From Neolecta irregularis DAH-3 (Eukaryota): DNA of 41,744 bases. The stretch is from NCBI GenBank assembly GCA_001929475.1, contig LXFE01000417.1:1-41744 (forward strand), read 5' to 3'. The position numbers were made by a program, and so were the translations under genes. The notes beneath the pieces are model-generated. The model had not been told where the DNA came from and ran no database searches. It worked only from the letters and a program-made list of their open reading frames with translations. This document shows, one piece after another, positions 1 through 36,947 of the stretch (the stretch's first letter is position 1; each line of letters starts with the position of its first letter).

Positions 1-1096
1 CTCATTTCTGAGTGGAACTATTGCCGGAACAGTATCGATCTTGTATCTTCATGCAGCGCGACCCGGCAAGAGTACCACTGATCTAACTCTATTTACCTTG
101 GTCAGAGCAATCGACGTCTTGTTTCATCTCAACGACACCCTGGTATTTGTATTCGCTTGTAGCATTATTATGTATGCATACTTCTATTCGCCAGAGAAAC
201 TTCCTCCGTCATACAATTCGTGGATTAACAAAATGAGTACTGTTGATCCAAGAATCAAAGTCATGTTCAAGAAGCTTCATGATAAGAAGATACAATTTGG
301 TCAACCGTCAAGCGACCGGTCGCTTGAAGACGTCTCTTTTGATTTGGGTCTTGATCCAAAGATGGGGAGCATTGAAGAAAATGACGCCTTGCCGTGTCAA
401 GTTTTCCACTCTAATATTTCCGGTTCTTGCAAAGTACATATTGCTTATCGGTGGCTAAAAGGATTCAAATCCTCCATAGCGGTATCCTTGATCCTACCCT
501 TTTCTTTACCTGACACGTAGATTTATGTTCCCCTTTCCCTTATGCTTGCCCTACGGGATCCAACTACGAAAAGCTTTAAGCGAGCATTGACGTCCGCCAT
601 ACGATCTTCTGCCTTTCTTGCCACTTTTATCTCAAATCTGTGGTATAGGATCCTCTTATGTCTTTATACCAATAAAATCTTAGGTTGGGTGTTTGTGCAA
701 CACGCTCAATAATCGGTCCCAAACTATTTCCTAATGTCAACCAAAATACGTATGATGGAATGATTGGTAATCCACTGCTAGGAAATCAGTCCACTTATTA
801 ATAGGTCCAACGATTGGGTCTTTTTTATCTGGATGGAGCATATTAATAGAAACCCCCAAAAGAAGAGGTGAACTTGCTTTGTTCGGTATTCCTTTACATT
901 CTACTGCCATTAACGTCAAGTCGTACCGAAAGCCTTAACGGTAGTATTGCCCAAATCAATCCAGCAACATCGTATCATCGAAACAGTCATATTCGGATTA
1001 AGCTCCGGTGTGATCATTCGATCGTTAATAGACGGAAAAGGTCGAAAAGTAAGGGGCATTTTCGGTAAAACGTTACACTGGATAATGAATGCCTAA
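1..1096 (+). CDS. TMEM135/PXMP4-like integral membrane protein, 5'-truncated by the window edge; 4 GT-AG introns
   Basis: The spliced frame gives TTDLTLFTLVRAIDV, IMYAYFYSPEKLPPSYNSWI, PCQVFH, AIRSSAFLATFI and GWSILIETPKRRGELALF, which are motifs of the fungal TMEM135 family. First intron 482-520; stop TAA 1094-1096. Confidence 0.75.
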
Positions 1097-1703
1097 AAGA
1101 CAAAAATGTAGATTTCAACTATGCATAAGATACTACATTCAATCTTGTTTCTTCATATTGCATTCAAGACAGTTGTAAAAGTCCATAATGATCACGACAA
1201 TGAGAGCCTGAGTTGTTACCTTTGCCAAACAAGAGTAAATATTACAGAATATTGGAGATATCCCAATACTTTCTCGGTATGAACTTCTTTTGGAACAATC
1301 CAAATATTGCACTGATAAATATACATATTATACTCCAAAGGAAATGTAATCGAGGGATGAAATTGCAGCCAAACGATCGATGGAGCAGTCTAACTTTTCC
1401 GAGTAGAAGGAATACGATCGTCTCGATCTCATATAATTTGGAAACCCATTCATTTGAGGTGTTTCCATCGCAGATCTAAATGAAGATATGGCGATACGAC
1501 GTATAGGTGAGTACTAAACTGCGGACTGTCTCTTTGCAGATTCCCGTGACTTTTTTTCCAAAGGTTACCGACCGACCAGAACCTCCTACTTTCCATTTTC
1601 CATTCACACAATCCCCCACTTTAGAAAAAGTCCCCTAGCACAACGCACACACATTCCCCCTAAATCTTCTAGTCTTAATAGACACATTACTCAAAAAGTT
1701 CCC

Positions 1704-2885
1704 ATGTCTGAAGCTACAGCGTCGAAGCGACCCGCCAATGACGACCTTCAAAATGACGCCAAACGGCAAAACTTTGAAGGAGATGAATCCTCCTGGGTCA
1801 GCCTTCGTGCAATTCTCTCTGGACGAGAAGCCTCTGTCGTGATTGGGACCGGCGGTGATAACGTCGCAAGGATTCGCCAGTTGGCTGCAGCCCGGATTTC
1901 GGTGTCGGATAACCTCAAAGGCGCCATTGATCGAGTATTAACATGCAGCGGAACACCAGAGAATGTTGCAAAGGTGTCCATAATATAGATTAATGGCAAA
2001 TATTTACAAGCTAGGCGTTCGGATTGATGGTTCGAACACTGAATGACGAATCTCTGGAAGCAAGTTCCAACGAGACAAGTAAGTCATTTACCCTGCGTCT
2101 GGCGGTTTCAGATTACTACATGGGAAGCGTGATAGGTAAAGCGGGTTCTCGTATCAAAGAACTCCAAGAAGTGTCGGGCGCCCGAATCACGGCTTCAGAT
2201 GGGTGTCTGCCATTGAGCACTGAAAGAACTGTTGTTATCGCAGGTGTAGCAGATGCTATCCACATCGCCGTATTTCATCTTGGAAAGACAGTTCGCGATT
2301 TTGCGGAAAAGTTCACCGTTGCGCTGACTGTTCCCTATAATCCACTGCCTACTTGGGGTATATACGGCCATTGGGACACATACGGCAAAAATCGGGCTAT
2401 GCAGGCTAATATCATGAGTCCCGCAAACCCATACGGTATTCCAATGGGTACGAATATGGGGCAAATGGCTGCATATGGCCAATTAGATCCGAGTATCGCT
2501 ATCGCGCAACAGCAGTTTCAGCAGCCGCAGACTCAAGGACAAGTGCAGGCTCGACCCGGCCCGGCAGCTCAACCCGGTCAACCAATCACGCAACAAATTT
2601 ATATCCCTAATGATATGGTTGGTGCTATCATCGGAAAAGGCGGCGCCAAGATCAACGAAATCCGACAGGAATGCTCTACTTTTGAGACGAATGCTAACCA
2701 ACAGATGTCTGGTTCTCATATAAAAATTAATGAGCCTTCTGAACAAGGAAATGAACGGCTTGTTACTATTACAGGAACCCAAGAATGCAACCAAATGGCT
2801 TTGTAAGAGAATCTATTGGTTAAAACAACTGACTCTCAGATATATGCTCTACTCACGTTTGGAAAGCGAGAAACACCGTATGTGA
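1704..2885 (+). CDS. rnc1: Triple KH-domain RNA-binding protein (Rnc1/Pbp2/hnRNP K-like); 3 introns
   Basis: Three GxxG KH motifs (VIGTGG, VIGKAG, IIGKGG) and C-terminus ALYMLYSRLESEKHRM*. Introns 1974-2014, 2669-2704 (GA-AG) and a third starting near 2803. Confidence 0.9.
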
Positions 2886-3377
2886 GAGCTCGATACCCGC
2901 TTGATTTCGACCGTCTTTTGTAACGAGTTCTCTGTTAGTTAGATGGAAACGTATGCCCAATAGATTATCACGTTAAACCGTCCATTGATTGACAACGTCA
3001 CATCAGCTATTTGTCCTTGTTTTGGATGTCATCCGGATAGTCTGCTCTTTAGCACTGGATCTAATTTAGAAAACCTCGTATCAAATATCTCAAGTCTTCA
3101 TTCCCCTCTCAATGGGCATACCCTTCAGTCTTTATCGGAAGCCTGGCCCTTCAAGACCTTCAGCGGCACCGTTAAACGATCACTAAAGTCCAGCTCAAGC
3201 ATGGAAATTCTTTCTTCCTTGAAACGATACTTTTCAATCGAAAATCAACAGAAACTTTCAGGATCATCTAGTTCTCAAAAGCTATTTCCGATATCACTAG
3301 GAGACTTTTGCAGGCAGAAAAGATCCTTGTTTATCTAGAAACATTCATAAATTCAAGTATCGAACGGCGTCGAAAAG

Positions 3378-4376
3378 ATGATCGGTTTGATAAGGCGTTG
3401 TAAAGATAAGCGTCGAGTGGAGTATATAAAGCACTGGATGAAACGTATCGAAAAGCTCTTTGACGAGATACGAAAGGAACGCACATATAAGTTGCTACGG
3501 GACACTCGCCATCTGTTATCTTTTGTTTTAAAAACAGAGGTACGTATATTAGTGTTATTTGAGCTAAATAACAGCTTCTTGGCGACGTCCTATGTTCAGA
3601 CTGCCCTTGGAGAAAACAAGGTCATCTTTGATGGTATGTCTCTGCCATCCCCCGACTCTAAATTTTCGAGGCCGGCACATTGCGTGGTGCAGCAAAAAGT
3701 TACCTTTTGGCACTGAAATTGCCTTTGAAACCACCATCAGTGGTTCTGATCCGAAAACCGCTACTGAAAGGGACCGGCTGACGGTGAAAATTGCCTACTC
3801 CTCACAAGTAAACCTTGAATTCATCCACCAATTCCTCCTCAAGCGATATCGAAAGGATGGACAAGTTCCTCAAGGTAATATTCTGATCAACTGCTGGCCA
3901 ATACCAACTACCCAGGGCTTATGGCACTCAACAACCTTTTGCCTCAAACCCCCACCCTCAAATTTTTCACCATGGGTAGTTCTAAGAATTTTTACAAAGA
4001 GCACAATGCAGTGCCTCTCACTGGAGCTCTCCAAGCCTGGAGAGGCATTTTTCAATCACTTCGACCTTCACAAGGCAACATAATCTTTTTGTTCTCTGAT
4101 ACTTATTTGATAGGTTTCCTCACTGTAAACGTTGATGTCGCCACTACTGTCGCCTGGCAGGGTGACCTATCTCTTGTTGATATGGTATGTAAGCATTCAA
4201 ATATAACTGTTCTATACAATATTGGCAATTCTGCAAGGCAACGATCAGGCAAAGAAGTTTCTGTTGATTTCTTTCTTTGCCTTTACTCCTTTCAAAATAC
4301 GGAACTGTATAATAGAATCAAGGGATCTTGTGATATAGACCTTGAAGTTGCGTACCAAGTTGCTCCGACAAGATAA
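3378..4376 (+). pseudogene. Truncated Argonaute (N-domain and linker-1 only; no PAZ/MID/PIWI); gene fragment or chimeric short ORF
   Basis: Splicing out 3634-3670, 3875-3915 and 4075-4113 gives VIFDGRHIAWCSKKLP...QGLMALNNLL...LTGALQAWRGIFQSLRPSQGFLTVNVDVATT, which matches the Argonaute N and ArgoL1 motifs. Recognisable similarity stops near 4205, and the DOP1 stop follows at 4486. Confidence 0.8.
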
Positions 4377-4485
4377 GAAGTTCATCCATGCAATTGTTTC
4401 AAACTAACCAAGGCATGAAGCCTTGTAACATATCATTTTCCTATCATAACTGTTCAAAACTTTATAAAAACCACCCCGCTTTCAC

Positions 4486-7400
4486 CTAAACTTGATTCCG
4501 TGCAAACAAATCCTGATAAAGCCCTTCTTCACAAGCATCTATATCTGGCAATTGCATTGCATAAGTTGCCTCGTATGCAAGAATACTGAGACGATTGAGA
4601 TATGGCTTCAGTTGTTCAAGTTCTGTGATATTCTTACCAACTAGCAACGGTTTTCTTCTAGCCGTCGTTACTTGCGATGAAGCTGAATTTGACTAGAGTT
4701 GGACTAGTATACTAAAAGGTCACACGTACCTCAGTACTGGGAAGAAGATAATTCGTCGTATTTGAAACTCCCAATCTATAAGAAAGTCTATCAATCCAGG
4801 CATTTGGTTCGGACGTTGGCATTCTAAATATTGCGTCCATTGTATCTGTTATGAAGATCCATTCGTGCCTGGTAATGAGCAAGTAAGGCCAAAAAAACCC
4901 TACATCTGAAAGTCTTCCGGAGAAAGAACTAAAATCAGATCCAGAAGCTTACACGCTTCGAAGAGACTCTTGCTATGGTCTCTTTCCTGTATCGCAGCTT
5001 CTTCGACCATATACGAAAGCATCATCTGGAGATCGGTAAAGATGATTGGCCAAAACGACTGTAAATGGACTGAGGAAAATCGGAGAAGTATTGTTTGGAA
5101 TAATAAATAGATTTCACCTCGAATACTGTCTGATGGGGTACTGCGCACCACTTCGTTAACCTTTTCTTTAATTGTTGGAAGGTATATGAGAAACTCATCG
5201 GTCTCACAACAGAGCAATGCAAACTCGAGACGTCGGAAATTAAGTTGTCGTTGGAGGGTTTCTTGTTCTGCAGTCCCGAATAGCCCAGCTTGGTTGCTTG
5301 CGCCGAGACGGGCAACAAGTTCTACAACACGCTCCTTCTCGGCGGTATACAACTGCTTTCCAAAAGGTAGCCATAAACGAGCGCCTTGGGGTGTCATGGT
5401 AAAGAAGGCCCGTTCGTTGATCAAGTCGAAAACTTCTTTCCGCCACACTTTGTAGGTTCCCGGTATACATGTTACTAATCGGAAGATCTCGACTATGCGC
5501 GGATCTACGTTTGTTGGACTTGCATTAGTACAAGCAGAAAAAGGACAATGCAAGTTTCTGCTACGCAGCATCGGAGAAACAAGAAGATTGAGAATCTGGG
5601 TACATATGTACTGTATACGATCCGGCTCGCCAACAACACTGTGAATATTCTCAATGACAACTTCGATAAGTTGTTGCAAGACATCATCGCCTGGGGGTGC
5701 CGGTGATTTCGATGGTGGAGTTGCAAGACCGAACTCGAGGACAGCTCGTGCTTCGAACTGTCAAAAGACGGATAAAACACGAGACAAACCTGTTCTCTTT
5801 GACAGAGAATCACGTCTTGATTTTTCAGAATTCGCAGCAGTATATGCTATAGGAAGAGAAAATAGTACTATACGGTTATATAAATCCTAAAGTTTAGCTC
5901 AGTGACAGTATTATAGCAAATACTGTGAATTCCTTTCTGACTTTCTTTTGTTCTTGCAATGGCGACATCACCAATATTCTCCCGGAAACAGTCACTAACC
6001 GTAGAAGACTTGCAATGGAAGAACGATACACAGGCAATGCATTACCAACATCTCTTAAGAATTTTGTCACTTCGTTCCAATATATAACGATAGCACTTTC
6101 ATCGAGAGTCCGCATAAACTCGGTCATGAAGTCAATAACGAGAGGTTCAGAGCTAGAAGTTGGTTACAGAAATAAACTGGAACGTACAGCTCAACGGCCG
6201 GCGACTTCCTGCTGTTTAATAAGTCGATGGCCGTCCGATTATTTGACCGACTCGTGATGCAGCTGAGAAGCGTCAGTATCGGTTGCTTTGGATCGAAATC
6301 CGAAATATTCTGGATACAACTAAAGATACGAGGGTAGATTACTGCCTGACCATGTTAATTAATAACACTTTCCAAGCCCTACGTTTATTCCAATTCGAGA
6401 CCAGATTTCAATGAAAATTTCCAAGGTCCAAGTTGATTCGATCAAATACATTTGCGTCAGTAGTCTTTTACTTCGACTTGACAGCCGTGAAATGATAGTA
6501 GCTAGAGAACTCGAGGTAGCAGGTTTCATCTTAATCCTTATTTGTTCTGTCCATGCCCAGATATCAAAGCCTAATTTCTGAATATCTTGGTGACATAGGG
6601 AAATAGTGAACCGATTCTTTCAATTAGATCATATTGTGATAAGAGATACTTACATTGGGTCCCGCTCCTGAAGTTGCTATAGGTTCTGATGAAAAAACAC
6701 CAGAAAGAACATTCCCGAAAAAAGATCCGCTTTCTTGAACCTTCCGTTCCTCCAACAGCTTCTCCTCTATCTGCAATGCTTCATGGCCTTTTGGAATCAG
6801 GCGTTCCAAACCATCCATGAACAGGACAATATCAGGTATCGTGGCGGATAATACTGAATGGACATCATCATCTGTCGGCCGGGACGAAAGTTCTTGGAAC
6901 GCTATTCGAATCTCCTGGCAAATACAGGCGATCAAAATGAACGAAACCTGGAAGACATTCATGTCGAAGATATGGAAACAACTTGACATAAATCCAATCC
7001 ATTCCGCTAGGTAGGGACGGCTATCCTTGGAAGAAAATCCGACCGTAAAACACCGGAGAATGAGAGCTGCAAGCTCTGACATAGGTTTTGTGTCCTGCTC
7101 AGTAGCTGAATATGAATCGCTGAGGCTGGGCGAAGCAGAATTCAAACTCAGTTGCTTTTTAAGTAGACCGTGAGCAGATTGAAGGATATATGGCTGCAAA
7201 GATGGTGAGGTTCCGGTAGCACTTTGCAAAAGCTTCTGCATCAGGACATTTAGTAATTCAGTATCTGTAACAGAATTGTCTTCGGTAGCAGAAATAAGAC
7301 GATTGAGGTTGTTTAAGCATGCCAGCTGGAGGGGAACTAGTGTTTGTATTCTGTTTAGGTCATCAGGGTCTGATATCTGACATTGTACAATCCTAATATT

Positions 7401-10383
7401 TAGCAAAGGTGTCGAGGCGAGGAGTTATCTTGATAACACTGCAAGGAGCAGTTGGGAATAGGTCAATCCGCTTGTCTTGAAGTCACCTTGAGCTTAATTT
7501 ATGGAACCACGGAAATCATACGCAATAAAAGAAGCTCGACACGGTCATCGGTGAAAGAAAACATTTCTGCGGCCAGATAACTTAATAATTTTGTTTGTCC
7601 AACTTCCAGAATAGCTTCAAGCGCTTGAATTAGGGTCAGGAGATTACTGATATCATCGTCCCGATCAATAATAGAGGCCATAACTTGTATATCCTCAACA
7701 GTAGTTAATGATGGCGACTTCAAGATAGAGGACTGCAAGATTCTCATTAAAATGATGTCCATAAGTCTCCGGGTTAGAGTCTGTCGACAAGTGCAAGTAC
7801 AATACCTGCTCGTTGAAGCACCGAGAGCTTTGAGCCAACGCTTTGCACAAAGTCGAGCTGTCGGATGATTTGATTTGAATGTCTCCAAGACTTCATATAC
7901 TGGCCCGGCAAGAACATCCGAAAACCTTTTTTCGTTCACTTGCTGTCAGAAGGCAAAAGGAATGAGTTTTATTATTTACCACTCAGATTCCACAATACAG
8001 AAAATGATTGAATTGCTAGAGTCTTCATATTATCGTCAGTGTTTGAGAGGAAATATGATATCCGCGACCGACATATTTCGACACCGAGAATATCGACAAT
8101 TTTCCAGAAGAATGTTGTGCCTTCCAAGTGATATCGTGGATTCCGCGGTTCAAGAAGGGCCCAAGTCTAGATTTAATCCGTAATCAAACAGTGAAGAATG
8201 GTACCTTGTCAACAATCAGGTTTTGGTTATCCTTGCGTAAGTCCGATGCTGCGAAAGCTTGCATAGAGCGAAACCTCATGATTGTAGTGATTGTTGTAGA
8301 TATCATGGCAAAACTTTCCATTTTTTGGTCCCGCAGGACATCCAATAGACTCTGCACGATAGATCGAGCACTCTGAAGCTCAATGCGTGTATAAGAACCC
8401 AAAACATCTGCCAGGAATTTCAAGATATGCTCCACTGATTCTAGTTCCTTTTTCAAGATGGTTATTGTCGTCACAACTAAAATATCTCTGACCTGCGAGT
8501 TAGGAAGAGGCATGACAAGAGTCTTTGATGTATAGGCGCTCTGTTCTTGCCCAGCTTTGAAATATCGTGCAATATACTCTGCGAGCTGCCTGGTATCAGT
8601 GAATGTAACATCTGGTGATTCCAAAGTAAAGACTCGTGCAGGTATAAGCTGTAGCAAAGATACTGAAAGTTGAAAACTTTTGATTCCAATCTCTGAGGCA
8701 GCTTTTGTTCGGGAATGTGTCACTAACAGATCGAGAAGTGTCATCGGTATCAAAGATGTGACCATCTCCTCTTCTGCAATATCAAAAGTCGAAATGATAA
8801 GACTGATCAAATCGAAATTATTAATTTGCCCTTCGAATGCTTTATGAATAAGGGTAGAGATGCATCCCCATATTAAAGGCGCTTCGATCCCATTAAACAT
8901 CATCTTTGCGCTTCGTTGTACTTCTTCATATTGATCAAACAATTGCTTTCCCTCGAGATTCACTCGCACTGTTTGAAGATATTGAATGCAGGGCAAGAAC
9001 ATAATCGAGATAACTTTCCCGCCTACTTCCCAGTAATCCAACAAGGCAAGACAAATTCGAAAAGGCCTAACCAGATCTCGTGTATTTGAAAGCTCAGGGT
9101 CGAGTATTTCGTTCAGTCCGCTTAGTAAATATTGCAATCCGAACTTTTGAAAGTGTTCAGGATCGACATGTTCCTCTTCCGGTCCCAAAAACCATCTCCA
9201 TAGTCTCCGATTGAGAGAAAGATCACGGCGAAGAACAACCAATGTAGCGCTTAAAACTAAACGTTGGAGGTCATTTTTTGGGATGGTTCTTCAACATCAA
9301 TATTTCATATTATAAAGCCATTACTCTTGAAGAAGCGGAGATGCAAGCGGTACATTCGTCACCAACAGATCTAAAAATCCTCGTTGAACCAAGAGCTCCG
9401 AATCAGATAAGCCAGCACAAAATGCCCGAGTCATGAGCGTTGGATCGGGTTTGATAACTGAAGACTCTGCATCTACAAATTCAGCGGGATATAAAGTGAA
9501 ACCGGAACCATCAACTGTGGTTGAAAGTTTTGGCATCTTTCTGGACAAGTATACTAAAGCACCTTGTCTTCGACCACTCGCACTGATAATAGTAAGCCAA
9601 ATATTTTGCCAAAAGTATGCATCATCGTCCAGTGCTGTTCTAATGCCATCAACACAGGCGAACGTTCTTTCGAAAAATTCTCCTGTTTCTTCCTCAATAG
9701 CTGGAAGAAGTGCCAGTAACAAAGACTTAGCACATGGTCGCAGGTATGTTCCGAGAGCGATGTAATGTTGTTCAAAGAGAGTAAGCAGATGAGGCTATTC
9801 GTGAGTTTTTTGAGGAGAAATTAGATACGAAACCCTGACGCTGATAGAAGCATATGTAAATAAAGGAACCAGACCGGGTGTCCAGATATGCAATTCGCGT
9901 CCTAGGTAATCCCTCTATAAGACATTAGATTTGTTTCCATGATAAATTTACTCCCAGCTGTCTGGATATGAAATCATATACTTCTAAAGTCCTCTGGTGA
10001 ACTCCCGACGGTAACGATGGATCCAGGCATTGAGCAAGTCTTCCAGCGACTTGAACTTTATACGGAATATGTCGAAATGCCGAGCCGAGATGTAATGCCT
10101 AGTGCCTTAAATATGATTGACCCGCCCTGGATACCTTGAGAAGTCTCGAGAGGAAAGATATGTAATCTGCCCATTCCTGAGTAACCTCAAAGGTAGACAA
10201 ACTTCTATTTATCGCTAGAGAGAACTTTTTGTATTTTGCATCTTTATTCGGATCTGAACGCTCTGTAACAATCACTAATGGTCTCGTGGAGAGGGTACCT
10301 CTTGTTGGCGATATTGATCTAGAATCTGCGGGAAACAGAGCTGACAAAGTCAACGGCGAGTCAAGGTTTAGTTTCTCTGCCAT
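4486..10383 (-). CDS. DOP1: Dopey/DOP1 endosome-Golgi trafficking protein; about 17 introns
   Basis: Dopey_N motifs QEWADYISFLSRLLK, RLAQCLDPSLPSGVHQRTLEVY, LVQRGFLDLL and VVLRRDLSLNRRLWRW. C-terminal motifs ACKLLDL and DFQMHEWIFITDT. Stop at 4486-4488. Confidence 0.93.
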
Positions 10384-11029
10384 ACATCAGAATTGTCGGC
10401 TGATTCTAGATATTATTTTGGGGAAAGACAATTGATGGTTGTATAAAGCGCGGTTATTCTAATTTGGAGGATAAACGCAATCCCACATCAGATGGGCATT
10501 AAAGTGCAGTATGAACAAGATCTTTGACGCATCTTGAACTAAATATTATAATTCAGATATTCTTGCCATAGTACCAGAGAATCTACATGACGCGCTGTGA
10601 TAATAGTCATTTATTCCTTTTGCGCTATTAAACTCCTAATTCAATTGCATGACCAGTACCTGTTTCGAGCAGCGGAGAACATAGATTCTTCCGTATGCCA
10701 AGAGACATCCAGTTGAGGATAAATTATGAAAATAATAGTGAGAATTCGATGATTTCATCAGACTGAATGGCGTTGAAATGGTAAACTTACAGTTGTGCTT
10801 CTCAAAATACAAAAAATCTAAAATCATGACTGCAAATTGGGATTAGAGTCACATCATTGTTTTCTAAAGCATATTTTATTCATTTGGATTATTATCATTC
10901 TTTGGGTGATAGGATCGAATTGGAGATTGGTGTAGGTGGCTCTTGCCTGATTGAGTTAATTACTGTAAATCAGCAATGTTCCGCCCATAAATCCCAAATT
11001 TCAAGATTGCTTGTAGTTCTCTTCGTAGA

Positions 11030-13131
11030 ATGCAGCAGAGAAAGGATGACGATGTACAAGGATCCGATTCAGAAATTCAGATCTCGAATGTTGCTACCAA
11101 AAGCGATAAAGTCAATATTTTGAATCAGTCAAAACCCAGAATCACACCTGGCCTTGGAGGATTTTGCATCCAACGATCAAGATCAGAAGTTTCACAGTCA
11201 AGACCAACCACAATAACTATATCTAACCGAGGCAAATCATTACTGGATATACCAGCAGCATTCGCTTTGGGAAACCAGGGTGGTCCTGAAGATTCAAGTT
11301 TGCCGTTTCAATACCCAAGACCAACTACAGCCTTCATTACCCAAAATGATTTTGCAACTGGAGATTCTTTGCAAGATATAGATGATGCAAGTGTCAGGAG
11401 TTTTGCTCCCACGGTTCGTACGGTAACCGGCGCTGAATCCATGCTTGGGAATATTCTCGATCATGATCTAGATAAACACTTAACTCCAATGACTCTTGAC
11501 CGAAGAAACTCGTTCCGAAGTTTACGGAGTACAAAGAGTATGAGGAGTTTGAGAAGTCTCGCTATACATGATACATCGGATACTTTTTCAATAACATCAG
11601 AGGATTCACTCGCCATTTCCGAAGACTTGGGGGACGGTACAATTATTTTTTGCCTGCGTTTCTAATTATTTAGAGGAGAGGATACAAATGTGGTTTAAAC
11701 GGAAAAAGCACTTTCTTATTCTTTCGAGCGCCGGAAAGCCAATTTACAGTCGATTTGGCGACGAATCCTTATCGATGGCTTATATGGGTGTATTACAAAC
11801 CATAATCAGCTTTTTCCTAGAAGATAGAGATCCTCTAAAGTATCATCAAAATTATCTCAGGCCCGTGATAACCATCAAAGGAGTTTTGTGGCTGGCGATA
11901 CACGATTCTTCGTCTCGCTTGAAGGACCATTATACTTTGTTGCAATATCTTCACTTGGTGAGACAGATTATCAGGTCCCTTATCTCGTTAGTATAAGCTA
12001 AACTTTAGCTACAAGTACAACTCGACATTCTTCACAATCAAATTTTAAGTACTCTGACCCTTGCACAACTTTCACGTGCATTCGAAAACCGGGACAATTT
12101 TGACTTGAGAATGTTGCTTGGTGGCACCGAAGTCTTCCTTGATGGCCTTTCAGATGCCATGATTCGGGGCGATTTTCCAGTCATGCTAAGCGCGATTGAA
12201 TGTTTAAAGATAAGGAGAAGAGAGCGTCTAAGAATTGATTCTGCGCTACTGGAAGCAAAACATCCTGTAGCCTGCGATATTAGATGTCATACTAATGCTT
12301 AGAACTTATTATACGGCCTGCTTGTTGTAGACGGACGGCTGGTCAGTGTTATTCGACCCCGAAAGCACTCTTTGCATCCTTTAGATTTACAACTTATATT
12401 TTCTATGCTTTTTAATTCGACTACTTTCAACGAAGGAGGTGAATATTGGATACCTATCTGCCTTCCCAAATTCGATTCGACAGGATTCCTGCATATGTAT
12501 GTCTCATTTATCGCCAATAAAGTCGGCCTTGTCTTGCTATCTGCGGGCAAGGAAGAGTTCTTTTCAATGAGAGAGGTTAAGGAGAACATTGTTGATGTAC
12601 CTCAACCAAGTCATTTTCTTGTTCATGTTCTAGCAACTGCAACGTAAAGGTCTACTTCATATTCTAAAGAATACAATTGAAAAAGGGCGGTATAGCACAT
12701 GTACAATCATCTGACTTGATTGATCTAAAAGTCTAGTTGATATACAGATACCTCGGTTACAGCATTTTCTGTACAAATCAAAAGATCTTGTGCAGTTCAC
12801 AATGCCGAGCCTTCCTGCTGCATTGGAGGAACCGAGAAATCGTAGACGGCTAATGACTTTATACTCGAAAATTCATGGATTAGTGCACACGAAAAGCGCA
12901 CTGACTAAAATTCATTGTCTTCGAACGCCATTTGCAGTAACAGTCGCCTGGGTTTTTTGTCGAAATTGTCTGTGATGCTTATCTGGATAGGTTACGCCAT
13001 TATTTGAAATGTATTGCGTCGCAAATCCTCAAATTTCTACAAACTCTCTTGTTAAAAGCGCGAATCATGTTGTTAAATGGATCGGTAAAGAAGAAGGAAG
13101 ATTGTTTATCCACGGCGGTGCGGTGTTTTGA
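11030..13131 (+). CDS. MON1: Vacuolar fusion protein Mon1 (Mon1-Ccz1 Rab7/Ypt7 GEF subunit); 7 introns
   Basis: Motifs KKHFLILSSAGKPIYSRFGDE, NFDLRMLLGGTE, RPRKHSLHPLDLQL, EYWIPICLPKF, HFLYKSK and KEEGRLFIHGGAVF*. The start codon is uncertain. Confidence 0.93.
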
Positions 13132-13198
13132 AATGTTGTTTTACTACGGAAGATTTCCAGATATCTTTTGATGTGCGCGACTTTTTTGGCCCCATATT

Positions 13199-16100
13199 TT
13201 AGCGCAGGTTTGGGGAAAATAGTCGCTCGAGAGTTTCTAGACGCTTTCTGTCTTTTTCTCGGACCTCGGCGGGTGCTTTTTCGATATATTTAGGTAGCTG
13301 CAGACGTGCTTTCAACAAATTGAGCTCTTTTTGCAGATATTCTATTTGATCATGATTCAGGTCTTTCGTTTTTGTGTCCTCTTTGGTATAAAGTAAGTGG
13401 ACCGCCAGATCCGACGAGATAACATTGCCAACCAACCCGCGTGTGCTTTCATCCTGGCATATTTAGTAGAGGTCAAGAAAACACCATACTGAAAATACAA
13501 GTTGTATCTTCCCTATTCCTGTCTGTCTTGCAATCTCGTCCTTGTATTCATCAAAGCTAGCAACAGCAAGTCCATCTTCTTTCATGTAACCAGTGATTTG
13601 AACGAATCCAGTAGAATCATTAGCTTTAGGAATTTGAAGCTTTTCGCGTAGAGCTCGGAATGATGCAATCACATCCACAACATTTTTCATCACCCTGCAT
13701 ATCCACTGGGGCATTTCTTGAGGAAATGCATCAATCTGTGGATAAGGCGAAAGCATTATTGATGGACGATTCGGCTCAGTTTCCATCATTTGCCATATTT
13801 CCTGGAGTTAATAAGCTCGTGTCGATGGGAAACTGGAAATATACCTCTGTTACAAACGGCATCAAAGGGTGTAATAATTTCAGGCACGTTGCCATGCACA
13901 TATACAACGTTTTGAGAGACTTTCCTGACTGTAATTTGACGCTCGAATCGGAATTCTCTTTCAAATCCCACATCCCTCTTTTACTGAACTCGAGGTAAAT
14001 ACCACAAAGATCGTCGATAATGAAGGATCGCAGTTTTATTGTTGCTTCGTACAAGGCCTTGCTCTCAAACGCCTCCACAGATGCTTTAGTAGCCTCGGAT
14101 AATTTTGCCATAATGTATATATCATGCAAAAGAGGTTGTGGGAGATGTTCAAAATGATGTTCGTTAAGACCAGAGGCAATAGCTTTATCACGATACACTT
14201 GAAAAAACTGGAATGCATTCCACAGTTTAGAGATTAAAGCTCGCGCTGACTTGACATTATTTTCATCCATACATATCTTTCTGGACTGTAAGTTAGACTG
14301 GAAGGAGAAAGGGAAGTACTTGAATAGTAGAGTCGACCAAAGCGAATCTGAGAGCATCTGTTCCGAGCGCTGGGATGCCCTTAGGAAACTTTTGCTTGAT
14401 ATTTTCCAGACTACGCTCAACTTCATTTTGGGAGAGGTTGCCATTGTGGATTTCCGTCTCCAAGAGCTCCTTCGAGACTCCGTTGATAATGTGCAAAGGA
14501 TCAATCACATTTCCCAGTGATTTCGACATTTTCCGGCCATGGGAATCGCATACCATAGGGTGTAGCCATACCTCCTTAAACGGAGCTTGTCCAGTAAGGT
14601 GTGTTCCGAGTAAGGCCATTCTTGCAAGCCAAAAGAACAAGATGTCTGAACCACTTTCCACAATATCGAGTGGGTAGTTAGACTATAATTTAGCAATGTC
14701 TTGCAAACCAAACTGAACGGGTACTGCTTTCCCATCCCATCCAAAAGCCGACAACGGGAGTAGCGCAGACGAGAACCAAGTGTCTAAAACATCCTCGTCT
14801 TGGACAATTGGCATTCCGCCAGCCTTTTTACTGGCTTCTCCTTCAGTTTGGGCGGCAACCCACTGTTCAGTTCCTTTGATGTTCCATGCTGGAATACGAT
14901 GACCCCACCAGAGTTGCCTGGAAATGCACCAATCTTGAACGTTTCCAAGCCATTGTTCCCAAATCTTGGAAGAGCAAGATGGTGTAAAACGAGGTACCTG
15001 TCTCTTGAGATCATCAAGAACACGCTCAGCAAGTGGTGTGGTCATTATGAACCTGCTCAGTTAGCCCCGCTTGGTTCGATTTTTATACCATTGAGGTCGA
15101 AGCATTGGTTCAATAATGTCTCCAGATCGGGAACATCGGGCCAGGTGCATTGTGTGATTCTTCTTTCCAGAGTACAGTCCCTTTTTATTGAGCAAATCGC
15201 ATGTTTTCGCTCTAACAGCAAGTCTATCCAGACCCTGTCAAATTAATAAAGGCCGAGCTTGAGAGTACTTCGAGTTCTTGCATACCGCAGCTCTTCGTCA
15301 TCTTTCCATTGCCATCAAAGATAGCTACAGTTTCAATTTTGTGTCGTTTTGAGAATTCATAGTCTTCCAAATCATGTGCGGGTGTAATCTTGAGGGCTCC
15401 GGTTCCGAGTTCAGGATCGACAAAGTCTCTATCCGCAATGATCGGCAATTCAAGGCCAGGTATCAATGGATGTCGGACTTTGTTTTGAACAAGTTCCTGA
15501 TGATAAGGTTGGCTATATAATCAGGAGGTACCTTTGCTCTTGGAATGTCTGGGTGAATAGCTATAGCTCGATCTCCAAATATAGTTTCAGGTCGCGTAGT
15601 TGCGACAGTAATTTTGTCTAGTCCAGGGAGAGCATGAACGAGGGGGTAATCAATAAAATGAAGGACGCCGACCTCAATACTGTACAATTAATTGACCTGG
15701 GCCATTATGATACATACCTGTTCGCACCTCCTTCTATTGACAATATCTTGCTCTCTGTAACTTTCTCGTAGTTGACTTCGATATCCGAGATCGCTGTACC
15801 GAGTTTGCAAGACCAATTGACCATTCTGTTCCCACGATAAATTAAGCCTTGGTCGAATAAAACTATGAAAGCAGTATTAACCGCGGATGATCTCGGTTCA
15901 TCGAGTGTAAAGAATTCGTTCTCCCAGTCTAATGAAGCTCCAAGCTTTTTCTGCCGAATATCAACATGATAGAGATGGACGGACATACAATTTGATTGGT
16001 AATAACACTGCTATATTCCGTTTTCCACTTCCAGACTTGTTCTGTAAACTTTTCCCGGCCCAATTCGTCTCTGCCAATCTCTCAATGCTTAATATTCTGA

Positions 16101-16597
16101 TTTGAGGTGAAAGGAGCGCACCCCTCTGGATTTTCGCAATGCTTTCTCAACGATATTTTGAGTTGCAATTCCGGCATGATCAATACCAGGTCTCCAAGAA
16201 ACTTGATATCCGCTCATTCTGTACCATCTCGCAAGTGCATCCTTTATTAAATCAGACACAATGATGATTCTTAATCTCACTTGTATACTCAACGTTAAAG
16301 CATGCCCAATGTGTAGCTTTCCGGTAACATTCGGAGGAGGAAGAAGCATGCTGATCTTTCCTAATGGCTGGGATCTTGAAGATGCTTGAAAGCACCCCTG
16401 TGATTCCCACCAATCGTACCATCCTTGTTCTACCCTTGCCTGGGATACAAGTGAGTAGGAATACAAAAATGGAGATGTACCGGATCGTACGCTTTCTCTA
16501 GTTTCCTCACAGATTTTGTGGTAACATATTGAATATTTTTGAATATTCTAGTATAATTCGACGGCCGGACACTAAAACGAGCGACAATAGTGTTCAT
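13199..16597 (-). CDS. Valyl-tRNA synthetase, probably mitochondrial; about 12 introns
   Basis: Motifs [63 protein letters not shown] and KMSKS. The N-terminus [23 protein letters not shown] is Arg-rich with no acidic residues, like a presequence. Confidence 0.92.
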
Positions 16598-16808
16598 TCA
16601 ATAATCCGAGGGCCTCCAATTATCTGGGCGAAAATAATTCAAGTCAAATGTTCATCCGGGGTTCGCCGAGAATCGGACACGAGCTACCAGATGCAGGTCA
16701 TAAATAATACGAGGAATCTGTAGTAATACATGTAACTTGAACTCACATTGGTGATTACCAGAAGACTAGATAATATCAATTGGAATCCAACCATTACAAA
16801 AAAGTTAA

Positions 16809-17880
16809 TTACTCGCCTATTTCTTTGTAAAACGGAGCCATTTTGATTTGATTAGTGTTTTTGGGGTTCAAAACAGCGATACCAGCTCTCACCAATAAAC
16901 GAACAACACTCGAATCACCGCCCACTGAAATCCACTCATCACCCTCAACCACAACTGAATTCAATAAATTCTATGGGGGTGATCAGACGGTATAAAAGAA
17001 ACGCATTCACCTCTAATATTTCCTTGAATTCATCTCCGAGTGAGGAATTAACTGTAGATTCACCGACTCCAAGATATTTATCTAGTGTTTCTTGTTTTTT
17101 GCGGTTTGTTGGTATATCAAGATATCCAATCTGCGACCCCTGATTTTCAGCATCCAGTAATTGCACGATGGTGGTATCGATAAACGTTCTCAATGTTCCC
17201 ATTATATAAATATCATCCTTTTCAATTTCTTTTATTTTTTCTTCATGTTGGCTAGACATTTAGTCGTGGAAATTGGAGTAATGTACCTTATTATATCGTG
17301 GAGCGAGTCGCCCGAAGATTGCTCAATATTTTCCAATCGCCGCTGCAATCCATCGTGAATCTCGCTTATTTCTCGTAAATATTCCTTGCGCCTTGATTCA
17401 GCATCTGGAGACAAACAAGTATACCGTGAAAGAAGACTTGTCGTTTCGTGAATTGAAGCGATGACCGTACTACTCAATTCACCTGCTTCACGTACAGTTG
17501 TGTGTAAATTCTTCTTGTTGAGGATGCTTGGAATCAAACTATCTTTGTCGGGAATAAAAGTTGTCGTGATGGCAGATTTATATGCATTGATTATTGAGCT
17601 TGTAGATTCTTCATTTGAGATTATCTGCCATTAGATGTGAATATTCGGACTAATCTACCGTGTCTTGTAAAGATTGCTGTGTTTTAATATGGTTGATTGC
17701 ATCCTTGTGTTCGTTTATTTTTTCGTTCAGTAGTGCGATCGTGGCGTCTAATTGCGAATCGTCGCGTTGATTGATACAAGAGGTTCTAGGCACCGAGCCT
17801 GTATTTTTGTAGGCAAGAATTTTGAGACGGACACATTTTCTTACAAAGTCTTGTGTTTGTGGAGATAACTCGTGTGTCAT
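16809..17880 (-). CDS. Probable centromere protein K (CENP-K/Sim4-like) coiled-coil kinetochore protein; about 4 introns
   Basis: The spliced C-terminus SVVRLLVRAGIAVLNPKNTNQIKMAPF resembles the CENP-K C-terminal motif (LVR..IA..HP.D...I.L..F), preceded by a helical coiled-coil body. Confidence 0.6.
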
Positions 17881-17994
17881 GTTGTGGAAGGGCGGAACAG
17901 AGTGAGGGTAAATAAAACACAAATATGATATTCAATACATAGGCACCAGGCACCATCCAGATCCTTTCAACCTGACCATTATGAGGTCTCTGAA

Positions 17995-19749
17995 TTATAC
18001 AACAGTTTCTCCATCTTTAATACTCAGCTGTTCTTCTATCTGTACGGCACGATTCAGTCTACGAGTTTTGCGAATTTCAAGCCTCCTCGATTGATAATTC
18101 AGTCTCAGTCTTTCTCTCTGGTTGCTGGTACACCGCATCTCTCTCAGCGCAACTCGAGTAAACATCGTCATCGCATACTTGTACTTTCTCGAAAACTTCA
18201 CAACAGTCATCACCCGATTGTACCTCTTTTTCGCAATAACCCCAATCATAACCATACTCCTTCTCGAAATCCACATCCTCGCCACAGAGAGCGCCCATTT
18301 CCATCGCTCGGTACTAATTCGTTCTCCCCTCAATACGGCAATTTTTAAAATGGCCCCCGCAGTGATTTTACTGCCAAAGTAGTTTAATCGCTTAAATTCG
18401 CAAAGAATACGCATAATTAGATGTGTCGCGTTGGTAGTTCCCAAGCCCTTTGCCCGTGCAAAATTTACAGCCATGTGATTCAAGAGTGCTTTTGAAGGCT
18501 TGATGCGTCTTTTCACCATGATTTTGTATATGGAAAAAGTATACTTTGGACATAAAAGGGAAGAAGACTGAATAAAGGTTCTGTAGATTCGAGGGGATAT
18601 GCAGAAATTGTTTGATTTGGTGATTACGTCGTATGCCAAATCGAAGCGACTTCGAAGGATTGTTAGGCCATGGACTATGATGTACATTTCTGGTTCGGTT
18701 AGAGCGACGTCGGCTGATGTTAGACAAAATAGAAATTCAAACATGGGTTCAAGATGAATTTCGTGTAAAAATGAACGAATTGTTTTGGAAAGGATGGGAC
18801 GAGTGTCGGTGTCGAATTTGGTCGAGCCTGGAGTACTGGCTATTGTTTGGGTATCGGGATATATAACCGGACGGTGAATCAAGATTAAAATTGCTTGGGC
18901 AAAGAATTGAGGTGGGGAGACTTGTTTGTTTAGCATCGTTTCTGGATTTTCTGTCGACATTACTTGACTTTTAGAAAAGTGAAAACGACGGAGACGGAGG
19001 TGGTGATTTATTGTGCCGATGATCACTTCATTTCTGAAGCAGGACATATTTAGGAATTTGATGAGGAGGGATGTGTCGTTGTTTAGGAATTGACCAATGA
19101 TGAGGGCTTGGACGTCTAGATCAATGACTGTTTGGTTGAAATATCTAATTGTTTTGATTAATACATGAGAGTGATCGATGTTCCAGGCGTTATGACGGCG
19201 CTTTGTCTGGATTCGAGCGATGAGGATTCTTAGAGCATCGTTTAATCTTTGCGGATCGAGGGCCATGAATATTGATCTGAGAGGTTTTGAAGGGTGGATG
19301 TCGTTTGTTTTTGATTTGTGTTGGAAACACAACAAGAATTCAAAGGCGGATGCGAGGAGAGCGGCTGGTGGATGAGGAGTGGATTCGATGATGCGTTTGA
19401 CGAGGGAGACATGTCGTAGTTTTATTGCTCGGCCCAAGATGAGGTGGTTGATAGTATCGACGAAGGGTATTTTTGCACAAATGATGAGATTGAATATGCA
19501 TTCAAGGGGTTTTGGCGAGTTGCAGCTCTGGATGATGGGCGGGAGGATGCGCGGATGTATAGGCAGGATATTGAGGAGGATGCGATTGAATTCGGGGTAT
19601 TTGTTGTGTTTGAGGTGGGAAAGGAGGAGTGAGTGAATATCAGGATGAGTATCAGGATGAATATTAGAACGAGAATTAGGATTAGAACGAAGATTGGAAT
19701 GGAAATGATGGTGAAAATAAGAGCATGTTGCTAGTCGCCGCTGTAGCAT
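17995..19749 (-). CDS. Intronless 584-aa basic helical protein, probably a mitochondrial degenerate PPR-repeat protein
   Basis: Long uninterrupted ORF. The N-terminus MLQRRLATCSYF is presequence-like, and ISPRIYRTFIQ...FSIYKIMVKRRIKPSKALLNHM resembles a PPR motif. Confidence 0.55.
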   Translation of the reverse strand: MLQRRLATCSYFHHHFHSNLRSNPNSRSNIHPDTHPDIHSLLLSHLKHNKYPEFNRILLNILPIHPRILPPIIQSCNSPKPLECIFNLIICAKIPFVDTINHLILGRAIKLRHVSLVKRIIESTPHPPAALLASAFEFLLCFQHKSKTNDIHPSKPLRSIFMALDPQRLNDALRILIARIQTKRRHNAWNIDHSHVLIKTIRYFNQTVIDLDVQALIIGQFLNNDTSLLIKFLNMSCFRNEVIIGTINHHLRLRRFHFSKSQVMSTENPETMLNKQVSPPQFFAQAILILIHRPVIYPDTQTIASTPGSTKFDTDTRPILSKTIRSFLHEIHLEPMFEFLFCLTSADVALTEPEMYIIVHGLTILRSRFDLAYDVITKSNNFCISPRIYRTFIQSSSLLCPKYTFSIYKIMVKRRIKPSKALLNHMAVNFARAKGLGTTNATHLIMRILCEFKRLNYFGSKITAGAILKIAVLRGERISTERWKWALSVARMWISRRSMVMIGVIAKKRYNRVMTVVKFSRKYKYAMTMFTRVALREMRCTSNQRERLRLNYQSRRLEIRKTRRLNRAVQIEEQLSIKDGETVV

Positions 19750-19893
19750 CGAGTAGTGGGCATCCAGTGGTGGTTGATATGTATTTTTTATTTTGTATTC
19801 ACATTTGGCTCTATTCCTTACACCGCTATCTCAACTCTGCTATATTACATTCAGCTCTATATACTCAACTATATTCAACATCAATCCCATTGA

Positions 19894-20310
19894 ATGTCAT
19901 ACCTCCGTCATGTAGCACGCCATCTCGCAGATCTCGACAAGGACAATTACACAGACACAAAGATCGACCTGCCCAAACACCGAAGTACTCTCCGTCTTCT
20001 ATAGCCGCTTATTCAGATCCTCCAAAGAAAAAACACTCACCCGCGGTTAAGAAACTGCTTGCCTCAAAAAAGACATTTGCAAACCTCCTCGACGAAGCTG
20101 TACTTGCAGTTCCCGCTCGCCGCTCATATACAGGGCTCAAACTGTTCCTATGTAAAGGCAGCTGCTCCTCCATCTGTCTACCCACCTCGACACCTCTGCG
20201 GCGTTTGTAGTTACTGGGGCCGCTATCTCTGTGTGCGGTGCCATTCGCACTACTGCTCTACCCCCTGCCGCGACATTCACCTAGAAACACGATGCATGAA
20301 GTTTTTATAA
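19894..20310 (+). CDS. VPS71: SWR1 complex zinc-finger HIT subunit Vps71/Swc6 (ZNHIT1); 2 introns
   Basis: Spliced RHLADLDKDN...KKTFANLLDEA...YVKAAAPPSVYPPRHLCGVCSYWGRYLCVRCHSHYCSTPCRDIHLETRC. Confidence 0.9.
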
Positions 20311-36825: not shown

Positions 36826-36947
36826 GGCATCAAATTTGACATCAACTCCTCATTTTTGTCATTTTTGTTCCACCGAGATGGTCACTTCTTTGCGTTGGGT
36901 ATCTTGCATATTAACGAATAATTTACTAATATTAGATAATCAAAAGA

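What the first reader, a model, noticed from the sequence alone, without database searches (positions are those of the whole stretch)
2669..2704. GA-AG intron inside the third KH domain of rnc1
The ORF reads KINEIRQ-ECSTFETNANQQ-MSGSHIKI, whereas KH domains have EIRQMSG contiguous. The 36-nt insert GAATGC...GCTAACCAACAG has a textbook branch point (GCTAAC), a CAG acceptor, an upstream exon ending in CAG, and a length typical for this window. It starts with GA and contains no GT. GA donors are very rare in most eukaryotes.
Basis: partly seen in the sequence, partly recalled or inferred. Interest (0 to 1): 0.82.

Follow-up and report, generated by a model that had tools for sequence, protein, structure and literature searches.

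The report
Real GA-AG intron in fungal KH gene
A 36-base piece inside a fungal RNA-binding-protein gene is a genuine intron that starts with GA instead of the near-universal GT; this kind is rare but already known, so it is a nice example, not a new mechanism.

Summary
Window 2669-2704 is 36 nt, in frame, stop-free and GT-free. It sits between EIRQ and MSGS in the third KH domain of a three-KH (rnc1/PBP2/PCBP-like) gene.

Evidence that it is an intron:
- None of 120 homologues has the 12 residues.
- One run (X2) behaves as cDNA, because its contigs skip many 33-41 nt GT..AG pieces. It holds an exact-match 984-nt contig that skips these 36 nt. The DNA run X1 holds them, with A at 2670, and shows no joined form.
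- A spliced mRNA-like contig of a diverged relative (87.5% CDS identity) has the same junction.

A repeated ACAG makes the joint ambiguous by 4 nt. Only GA..AG gives G at +1 and an AG acceptor.

Apart from +2, the signals are among the best of 15 local introns: cag|GAATGC, TGCTAAC with the branch A 7 nt from a CAG acceptor.

Verdict: a U2-type GA-AG intron, confidence about 0.85.

Caveats: the evidence is contigs, not raw reads. Only 30 letters lie 3' of the joint. Splicing efficiency is unknown, and so is the genome-wide GA frequency.

GA-AG introns are already documented in fungi at about 0.04%. This is a new member of a known kind, of modest interest.

The parts
1704..1973 (+). Exon 1 of the three-KH gene (ATG at 1704; KH1)
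   Evidence: Pfam KH_1. X2 record 9 covers 1670-1971. Gene model translated.
1974..2014 (+). Intron 1, 41 nt, GT-AG, phase 0
   Evidence: Skipped by X2 record 9 and by the relative's mRNA L001. Sequence.
2015..2668 (+). Exon 2 (KH2, Q/P-rich linker, first half of KH3 up to ..KINEIRQ); ends CAG
   Evidence: X2 record 9 covers 2013-2664 with 0 differences. Pfam. Alignment.
2669..2704 (+). Intron 2, 36 nt, GA-AG, phase 0, stop-free if retained (would add ECSTFETNANQQ)
   Evidence: X2 joint 2664->2701, skips 36, movable by 4. Absent from L001 mRNA. Absent from 120 of 120 homologues. Present in the DNA contig X1 record 3.
2669..2674 (+). Non-canonical donor GAATGC (A at +2 = 2670), preceded by exon CAG
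   Evidence: 6 of 9 matches to CAG|GTAAGT and 7 of 9 to CAG|GTATGT, tied best of 15 introns (the consensus strings are recalled).
2692..2698 (+). Branch-site motif TGCTAAC, putative branch A at 2697, 7 nt from the 3' splice site
   Evidence: 6 of 7 matches to TACTAAC, tied best of 15 introns. Use as the branch is inferred, not shown.
2702..2704 (+). CAG acceptor
2665..2668 (+). ACAG, repeated at 2701-2704; it makes the RNA joint ambiguous over five placements
   Evidence: read laying 'both = 4'; sequence.
2705..2802 (+). Exon 3 (second half of KH3, MSGSHIKINEP...)
   Evidence: X2 record 9 runs on for 2701-2730. L001 alignment. Model.
2803..2839 (+). Intron 3, 37 nt, GT-AG, phase 2
   Evidence: Absent from the relative's mRNA L001. 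Needed for the conserved C-terminus YMLYSRLESEKHRM.
2840..2885 (+). Exon 4 with stop codon TGA at 2883-2885
   Evidence: Spliced model of 1068 nt = 355 codons plus stop.

Best explanation
Window 2669-2704 is a bona fide U2-type spliceosomal intron. It is the second of three in a three-KH-domain RNA-binding protein gene, and its 5' splice site is GA instead of GT.

The pre-mRNA is cut between G2668 and G2669 and between G2704 and A2705. This joins ..ATC CGA CAG to ATG TCT.. and rebuilds the conserved KH3 motif EIRQMSG.

I infer that the A at +2 is tolerated for two reasons. First, every other signal is unusually good for this organism, whose 33-41 nt introns otherwise have weak donors and weak branch motifs. 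These signals are exon-end CAG, +1 G, +3 A, +4 U, +5 G, a near-perfect TGCTAAC branch site 7 nt from a CAG acceptor, and a length in the local optimum. Second, such tiny introns are probably recognised as whole units.

Because the intron is 3n long and stop-free, failure to splice would only add 12 residues. This may relax selection against the weak donor.

Shown: GA in the DNA, excision in RNA-derived contigs, the junction shared with a relative, and the signals.

Inferred: the spliceosomal route, the exact cut placement, compensation, and efficiency.
For: (1) DNA. The window and an exact-match contig of DNA run X1 (record 3, 1731-3610, 0 differences, word depth 432, like its neighbours at 374-432) carry the 36 nt with A at 2670. 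X1 has 0 contigs with the joined form.

(2) RNA. X2 contigs skip 33-41 nt pieces. Of the 15 joints displayed (50 found), 12 have GT..AG or CT..AC ends, 1 is GC..AG, 1 is a replacement and 1 is this joint. None of them is in X1, so X2 behaves as cDNA. Its record 9 (984 nt, depth 468.8, 0 differences) reads 1670-1971 | 2013-2664 | 2701-2730. The 30-mer 2701-2730 is unique in the window, even allowing 3 mismatches. The pieces of X2 contigs that were displayed total about 5.6 kb with 0 differences, so X2 is the same strain as the window.

(3) A relative. L001 is a 1305-nt spliced mRNA-like contig. Its CDS is 935 of 1068 nt identical, with 110 synonymous and 16 non-synonymous codon differences. It lacks all three introns and has the same junction.

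(4) Protein. The spliced model is 355 aa, 339 of 355 identical to P0001 with 0 gaps. 0 of 120 homologues have the insert.

(5) Signals. Length 36 falls within the 33-41 nt range. The donor context matches CAG|GTATGT at 7 of 9 positions and the branch motif matches TACTAAC at 6 of 7; both are tied best of 15 introns. The acceptor is CAG.

(6) The flanks AG|GAA match the pattern reported for RNA-supported GA-AG introns of Eurytemora and Oikopleura (passages of PMC7072748).
Against: All read evidence is Logan contigs, not raw reads. Minor variants and the share of retained transcripts are therefore invisible.

Only 30 letters of X2 record 9 lie 3' of the joint, or 26 under the GA..AG placement.

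The contig stops exactly where the next 31-mer would be shared with unspliced RNA. This may mean that unspliced molecules are present too (my inference; k=31 is recalled).

X2 is labelled 'DNA?' by guess. I call it RNA only from its behaviour.

X1 is probably the source of the assembly, so it is not independent proof of A at 2670.

The joint can be placed five ways (AC..CA, CA..AA, AG..AC, GG..CA, GA..AG), and the choice of GA..AG rests on parsimony.

The relative's genomic donor is unknown. No lariat, U1 or U6 data are available. No whole genome is held, and Rfam found no RNA gene in the window.
Confidence: 0.85

Rival explanations
1. Leaky GA intron (a variant of the main reading). The GA donor is used, but inefficiently. 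A sizeable share of mRNAs keeps the 36 nt and encodes a protein with 12 extra residues at the end of helix alpha-2 of KH3.
For: The intron is 3n long and stop-free, so retention would escape nonsense surveillance. X2 record 9 passes intron 1 but ends exactly 30 nt after joint 2, as expected at a graph merge with an unspliced path (inference). AlphaFold models the read-through ORF with the insert as a longer helix plus loop. pLDDT is about 67 in block 221-230 against 83-88 beside it, so the fold is not obviously destroyed.
Against: No contig holding the retained form was displayed; 244 pieces were not shown. X2 depth in bin 2002-2668 (458.3) is fully accounted for by record 9 alone (468.8 x 652/667). 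No well-covered retained-form contig therefore overlaps the left boundary (my arithmetic). None of the 120 best database proteins carries the insert.
Confidence: 0.3
2. Hidden GT allele. The sample holds two alleles or nuclei, T and A at 2670. The spliced mRNA comes from the GT copy and the assembly happened to keep the GA copy.
For: Contigs drop minor variants (text). X1 is a messy run (1.9 million contigs), with diverged copies of some neighbouring regions.
Against: The single-copy X1 contigs displayed match the window with 0 differences over about 17 kb. The X2 pieces displayed match over about 5.6 kb. No alternative contig is laid over 2002-3335 in X1, where the bin depth equals the depth of record 3. 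There is thus no sign of heterozygosity here. Vegetative ascomycete nuclei are haploid (general knowledge).
Confidence: 0.05
3. Base error at 2670. The true genome has GT, and the A is a sequencing or assembly error.
For: One wrong base would turn an ordinary GTATGC donor into GA.
Against: An assembly made independently of the window (Logan contig of X1) gives the same base at word depth 432, with 0 differences over 1880 nt. It probably uses the same reads.
Confidence: 0.02
4. cDNA artefact. Reverse transcriptase switched template between the two ACAG repeats, and the real mRNA keeps the 36 nt.
For: A 4-nt direct repeat flanks the deletion. Such repeats favour template switching (passages of PMC4176328).
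Against: The joined form is the contig-level, dominant form in two independent data sets from two diverged organisms. The repeat is only 4 nt, and 3 of the 4 follow from the splice consensus (CAG at the exon end and at the intron end). The deletion restores an invariant protein motif. The segment has U2-like signals, unlike the artefact class described in PMC4176328. The local RNA has no special structure (z = 0.14).
Confidence: 0.02
5. Not an intron. The 12 residues are a lineage-specific coding insertion, or they are removed by a non-spliceosomal route (IRE1-like or U12-type).
For: The segment is in frame and open.
Against: RNA contigs lack it. There is no twin-hairpin structure. The donor GAATGC and branch TGCTAAC do not resemble the U12 motifs (recalled consensus; sequence).
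Confidence: 0.01

Closest known systems
GA-AG introns reported in fungal transcriptome annotations (Fusarium graminearum, Ganoderma lingzhi)
   Same: U2-like introns with a GA donor and an AG acceptor, supported by RNA. In G. lingzhi, 35 GA-AG introns are listed (0.038% in the paper's table). In F. graminearum, GA-AG is listed among the 0.31% 'other' sites of 2604 introns (passages only).
   Different: Those are single rows in genome-wide tables of fungi with ordinary introns. Here the intron is 36 nt in a lineage with 33-41 nt introns and weak donors, and its position is shared with a diverged relative. The frequency in this genome is unknown.
Abundant GA-AG introns of Eurytemora affinis and Oikopleura dioica (Frey & Pucker 2020, PMC7072748)
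   Same: The GA donor is flanked by an upstream AG and a downstream A, that is AG|GAA, as here (cag|GAA) (passages).
   Different: In those animals GA-AG outnumbers GC-AG (3.2% of supported sites in one species), and a variant U1 snRNA was proposed. Here one case is known, and the U1 could not be examined.
Human GA-AG introns of FGFR genes and ITPR1
   Same: Conserved, efficiently removed U2-like introns with a GA donor. I saw this only as cited or described in PMC4176328 and PMC7072748. The original FGFR paper was not read.
   Different: The FGFR site is said to depend on a canonical GT 6 nt upstream. Here the nearest GT is 47 nt upstream, at 2622, so that mechanism does not apply.
GC-AG introns (the common +2 variant)
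   Same: The same position (+2) departs from U. The window itself has an RNA-supported GC-AG intron at 5519-5551 on the minus strand, with a 6 of 7 TACTAAT branch motif.
   Different: C at +2 is tolerated about 1-2% of the time in fungi. A at +2 is about 50 times rarer in the G. lingzhi table.

Membership tests
U2-type spliceosomal intron (GA-AG subclass) | The segment is present in genomic DNA and absent from mature RNA | tested here: met
   X1 DNA contig holds it. X2 cDNA-like contig and the relative's mRNA L001 lack it. There is no joined form in X1. Contig-level evidence only, with 30 letters on the 3' side.
U2-type spliceosomal intron (GA-AG subclass) | G at +1 and AG at the 3' end | tested here: met
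   Met under the GA..AG placement, one of five allowed by the ACAG repeat. The other four have neither feature.
U2-type spliceosomal intron (canonical class) | U (T) at +2 of the donor | tested here: not met
   A at 2670 in the window and in the X1 contig. This is what makes it the GA subclass.
U2-type spliceosomal intron (GA-AG subclass) | Branch-site motif (yUrAy / TACTAAC-like) a few nt upstream of the acceptor | tested here: met
   TGCTAAC at 2692-2698, 6 of 7 matches, branch A 7 nt from the 3' end. The best-matching motif in the 14 reference introns lies 4-13 nt from the 3' end. The consensus is recalled.
U2-type spliceosomal intron (GA-AG subclass) | Lariat formation and dependence on U1/U2/U6 | not testable with these tools
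   No raw reads, no genome, and no snRNA gene in the window.
U12-type (minor) intron | Donor [AG]TATCCTT and branch TCCTTAAC | tested here: not met
   The donor is GAATGCTC and the branch region is ATGCTAACC. The consensus is recalled.
IRE1/HAC1-type unconventional splicing | Two small stem-loops presenting the cleavage sites | tested here: not met
   Fold of 2630-2745: MFE -20.1 kcal/mol against a shuffle mean of -20.5, z = 0.14, with no paired hairpins at the two sites.
Reverse-transcriptase template-switch artefact | Long direct repeats, no splice-like signals, low and variable abundance | tested here: not met
   The repeat is only 4 nt, U2-like signals are present, and the joined form is at contig level in two data sets. 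Criteria from PMC4176328.
Type I KH-domain protein of the PCBP / hnRNP K / Rnc1 / Pbp2 group (the host gene) | Three KH_1 domains with GxxG loops | tested here: met
   Pfam KH_1 E = 7e-32 on exons 2-3 and 3.6e-8 on exon 1. Homologues are named rnc1, PBP2, PCBP-like and hnRNP K-like by their sources. Orthology to S. pombe rnc1 itself was not tested.

The most novel reading that the evidence does not exclude
The GA donor is not a one-off. This intron-rich fungal lineage has introns of only 33-41 nt and degenerate donors (GTA plus little else). It may have a spliceosome that reads whole mini-introns and has relaxed the +2 requirement. In that case GA (and GC) donors would occur at percent level genome-wide, as in Oikopleura or Eurytemora, possibly with a changed U1 or U6.

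The hints are weak. Among the 15 transcript-supported introns seen, one is GA-AG and one is GC-AG. The GA case is the reason the window was picked, so this count is biased.
Probability: 0.12. Interest if true: 0.6.

Novelty: new member of a known kind. Interest (0 to 1): 0.33.

Why it matters
For annotation: gene finders that allow only GT or GC donors will either insert 12 false residues into the third KH domain or break the model. The correct protein has 355 residues.

For splicing biology: this is a natural GA donor whose splice position is shared with a diverged relative. It sits in a minimal 36-nt intron with no nearby canonical GT to lean on. That makes it a compact substrate for asking what compensates for the loss of U at +2.

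It does not reveal a new mechanism. GA-AG introns are documented in fungi, animals and humans.

Tried and rejected
- Whole genome: none is held for this window. No genome-wide count of GA-AG junctions and no U1/U6 analysis were possible.
- The look-up of sequencing runs listed no holder on record as RNA ('no RNA holder listed'). X2 was treated as cDNA only because of how its contigs behave.
- 35 of 50 joints, 113 variant rows and 244 contig pieces were not displayed. I could not see whether a retained-form contig exists or what the ends of the other joints are.
- Genomic DNA of the close relative: the one metagenome scan returned only its spliced 1305-nt contig (L001) plus 79 distant loci. Conservation of the GA could not be tested.
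- Sequence-only census of G-N...branch...AG segments: the counts (strict: GA 66, GT 75, GG 54, GC 49) track dinucleotide frequency and do not discriminate.
- ORF-constrained reconstruction of the DOP1 introns from contig offsets: more than 50 solutions, not constraining.
- Adjacent-ORF join test: 31 of 244 ORF pairs lack a GT-AG join, but most pairs are not real exon pairs. Uninformative.
- Rfam on the window: 0 matches.
- IRE1-like structure: none.
- Literature: two searches were of little use. One search returned only general papers on intron length. One search returned 0 papers. One search was rejected for a syntax slip. The original FGFR GA-site paper was not found in the library.
- Supplements are closed. 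Per-species splice-site tables of PMC7072748 (File S1) that might give GA-AG frequencies across fungi were not seen.

Full report
**The sequence.** Window 1704-2885 (+) encodes a protein with three type I KH domains. Pfam KH_1 gives E = 7e-32 on the ORF 2015-2806 and 3.6e-8 on 1704-1973. Sources name its homologues rnc1, PBP2, PCBP-like or hnRNP K-like. Read straight through, the ORF 2015-2806 gives ...GKGGAKINEIRQ-ECSTFETNANQQ-MSGSHIKINEP.... The 36 nt at 2669-2704 start GAATGC and hold TGCTAAC at 2692-2698. They end CAG, follow an exon that also ends CAG, and contain no GT. The nearest GT lies at 2622 upstream and 2707 downstream.

**Protein comparison.** I aligned the read-through ORF with the 120 best of 1348 database hits. 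None of the 120 has any residue in the 12 insert columns. This includes P0001, which is 94% identical over the aligned residues. One homologue, P0012, has a different 17-residue insertion two residues upstream. All 80 metagenome loci fetched with P0001 read KINEIRx[LMIF]S.. without interruption on the DNA. One of them, L001, is the close relative's own spliced contig. In the other 79, all distant fungi (43-52% identity), the place holds no intron. Some of those loci could also be transcripts. The intron is therefore specific to the window's lineage, or was lost elsewhere.

**Transcript evidence.** No whole genome is held. Two public runs hold the stretch.
- X1 holds 97% of the sampled words. 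It is flagged as the possible source of the DNA.
- X2 holds 64% of the words. It is labelled 'DNA?' by guess.

I laid both on window 1-20000. X2 behaves as cDNA. Of the 15 joints displayed (50 were found):
- 12 skip 33-41 nt pieces with GT..AG ends, or CT..AC on the other strand;
- one is GC..AG (5519-5551, minus strand);
- one is a replacement by other letters;
- one is the joint in question.

X1 shows none of these joints. X2 record 9 (984 nt, word depth 468.8, 0 differences) reads 1670-1971, then 2013-2664, then its last 30 letters, which match 2701-2730. That 30-mer occurs once in the window, even with 3 mismatches allowed.

The tool reports 'skips 36, both = 4', because ACAG stands on both sides (2665-2668 and 2701-2704). 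The skipped piece can therefore be written five ways: AC..CA, CA..AA, AG..AC, GG..CA or GA..AG. Only GA..AG (2669-2704) has G at +1 and an AG acceptor.

X1 record 3 (1731-3610, 0 differences, depth 432, like the neighbouring single-copy contigs at 374-432) holds the 36 nt with A at 2670. The X1 depth over 2002-3335 equals that one contig, so no second DNA form is laid there.

**A second, independent transcript.** The metagenome scan returned L001, a 1305-nt contig that encodes P0001 in one open frame. Aligned to the window, it lacks 1974-2014, 2669-2704 and 2803-2839. Its junction reads ..atcagacag|atgtct.. against ..atccgacag|atgtct.. in the window. Its CDS is 935 of 1068 nt identical to the window's spliced CDS, with 110 synonymous and 16 non-synonymous codon differences. 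It therefore comes from a clearly diverged relative under purifying selection. With the three introns removed, the window's gene gives 355 residues, 339 identical to P0001 with no gap. The relative's genomic sequence was not found, so I cannot say whether its donor is GA or GT.

**How typical the intron is.** There are 14 other transcript-supported introns in the window, 13 from X2 joints and one from L001. They are 33-41 nt long with weak signals. Donors are GTA plus variable letters, and many branch motifs are degenerate. The candidate compares well:

| Feature | Candidate | Rank among the 15 |
|---|---|---|
| Length | 36 nt | within 33-41 |
| Match to CAG\|GTAAGT | 6 of 9 | - |
| Match to CAG\|GTATGT | 7 of 9 | tied best |
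| Branch motif vs TACTAAC | TGCTAAC, 6 of 7 | tied best |
| Branch A to 3' end | 7 nt | - |
| Acceptor | CAG | - |

The consensus strings are recalled, not from a tool. Apart from +2 it is one of the best-signalled introns here. This fits the compensation seen for other weak donors, but that link is inference. Its flanks AG|GAA match the pattern described for RNA-supported GA-AG introns of Eurytemora and Oikopleura.

**Rivals.**
- *Base error at 2670.* This is unlikely, because an assembly made independently gives A at depth 432. It probably uses the same reads.
- *Hidden GT allele.* Contigs cannot exclude it. However, the displayed single-copy contigs of X1 (about 17 kb) and X2 (about 5.6 kb) show 0 differences from the window.
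- *Template switching by reverse transcriptase.* It is favoured by direct repeats. Here the repeat is 4 nt, three of which follow from the splice consensus. The joined form is the contig-level form in two data sets from two organisms, the deletion restores an invariant motif, and the RNA has no special fold (z = 0.14).
- *U12-type or IRE1-type removal.* Neither fits the sequence or the fold.
- *The FGFR-type mechanism.* It leans on a canonical GT 6 nt upstream. It cannot apply here, since the nearest GT is 47 nt away.

**Open point: efficiency.** The intron is phase 0, 3n long and stop-free, so retention would give a protein with 12 extra residues. AlphaFold models the insert as an extension of helix alpha-2 plus a loop, at lower confidence. 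pLDDT is about 67 against 83-88 beside it; the whole-model mean is 73.5. X2 record 9 runs through intron 1 but stops exactly 30 letters after joint 2. That is where the next 31-mer would be shared with unspliced RNA. This hints that some unspliced molecules exist, but it rests on my recollection that the contigs were built with k = 31. The X2 depth left of the joint is fully explained by record 9 alone (468.8 x 652/667 = 458.3). No well-covered retained-form contig therefore overlaps that side (my arithmetic).

**Comparison with what is known.**
- In Ganoderma lingzhi, GA-AG accounts for 35 introns, 0.038% in the paper's table (passage).
- In Fusarium graminearum, GA-AG is listed among the 0.31% 'other' sites of 2604 introns, some confirmed by Sanger sequencing (passage).
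- Conserved GA-AG introns exist in human FGFR genes and ITPR1 (passages).
- Tunicates with mostly non-canonical introns show changes in U2AF and in snRNA modification (abstract only).

This case is thus a new member of a known kind.

**What I could not do.** I could not make a genome-wide count, examine the U1 and U6 sequences, read raw reads, or see the relative's genomic donor. My attempts at a census from the window alone were uninformative. Supplementary tables of the surveys were closed.

**Verdict.** Novelty: a new member of a known kind. Interest about 0.33. It would rise if GA donors proved common in this mini-intron lineage; I put that at about 0.12.

Noticed in passing
window 5519-5551 (minus strand): An RNA-supported GC-AG intron of 33 nt (ctt|GCATTG...TACTAATGCAAG) in the DOP1-like gene. 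This is a second non-GT donor among the 15 transcript-supported introns seen.
   Followed up: partly
window 643-920, 1974-2014, 2803-2839, 3634-3915, 4693-4903, 16971-17658: All 14 reference introns are only 33-41 nt long. Their donors are weak (GTA plus variable letters) and their branch motifs often degenerate, which is very short for a fungus. Only 2 of the 14 have a length divisible by 3; the sample is too small to test.
   Followed up: partly
window 1-1500 and 3336-4669: In DNA run X1 these stretches carry summed word depths of about 1000-7800, against about 374-432 for the single-copy contigs. They are covered by short contigs that differ from the window by up to about 7% (22 differences in 330 letters at 148-477). 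X2 holds transcripts of diverged copies too. They look like a multi-copy family or repeat. ORF 3568-4083 has a weak Argonaute N-domain match (E = 7.6e-5, below Pfam's cut-off).
   Followed up: no
P0012 (homologue from another fungus), KH3 region: It carries a 17-residue insertion (INE^...^R) two residues upstream of the site studied here. None of the other 119 homologues has it. It is probably an unspliced intron or a model error in that record.
   Followed up: no
window 1194-1245: X2 contigs replace about 50 nt here with 16-19 other letters (joint with ends CG..TA). This is not an intron. It is more likely a transcript of a diverged copy, or a variant in the region upstream of the KH gene.
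   Followed up: no
window 4470-10000 (minus), 24602-26710 (+), 36085-36849 (minus), 38152-40133 (+): The neighbouring genes are ordinary fungal housekeeping genes by Pfam: DOP1/Dopey, a RecQ-family helicase, PIG-F and KAR9. The best named protein hits of the KH gene are only 40-49% identical (one row 33%) and are spread over Pezizomycotina, Pneumocystis, Saitoella and Lipomyces. The organism therefore has no close named relative in the protein collection.
   Followed up: partly
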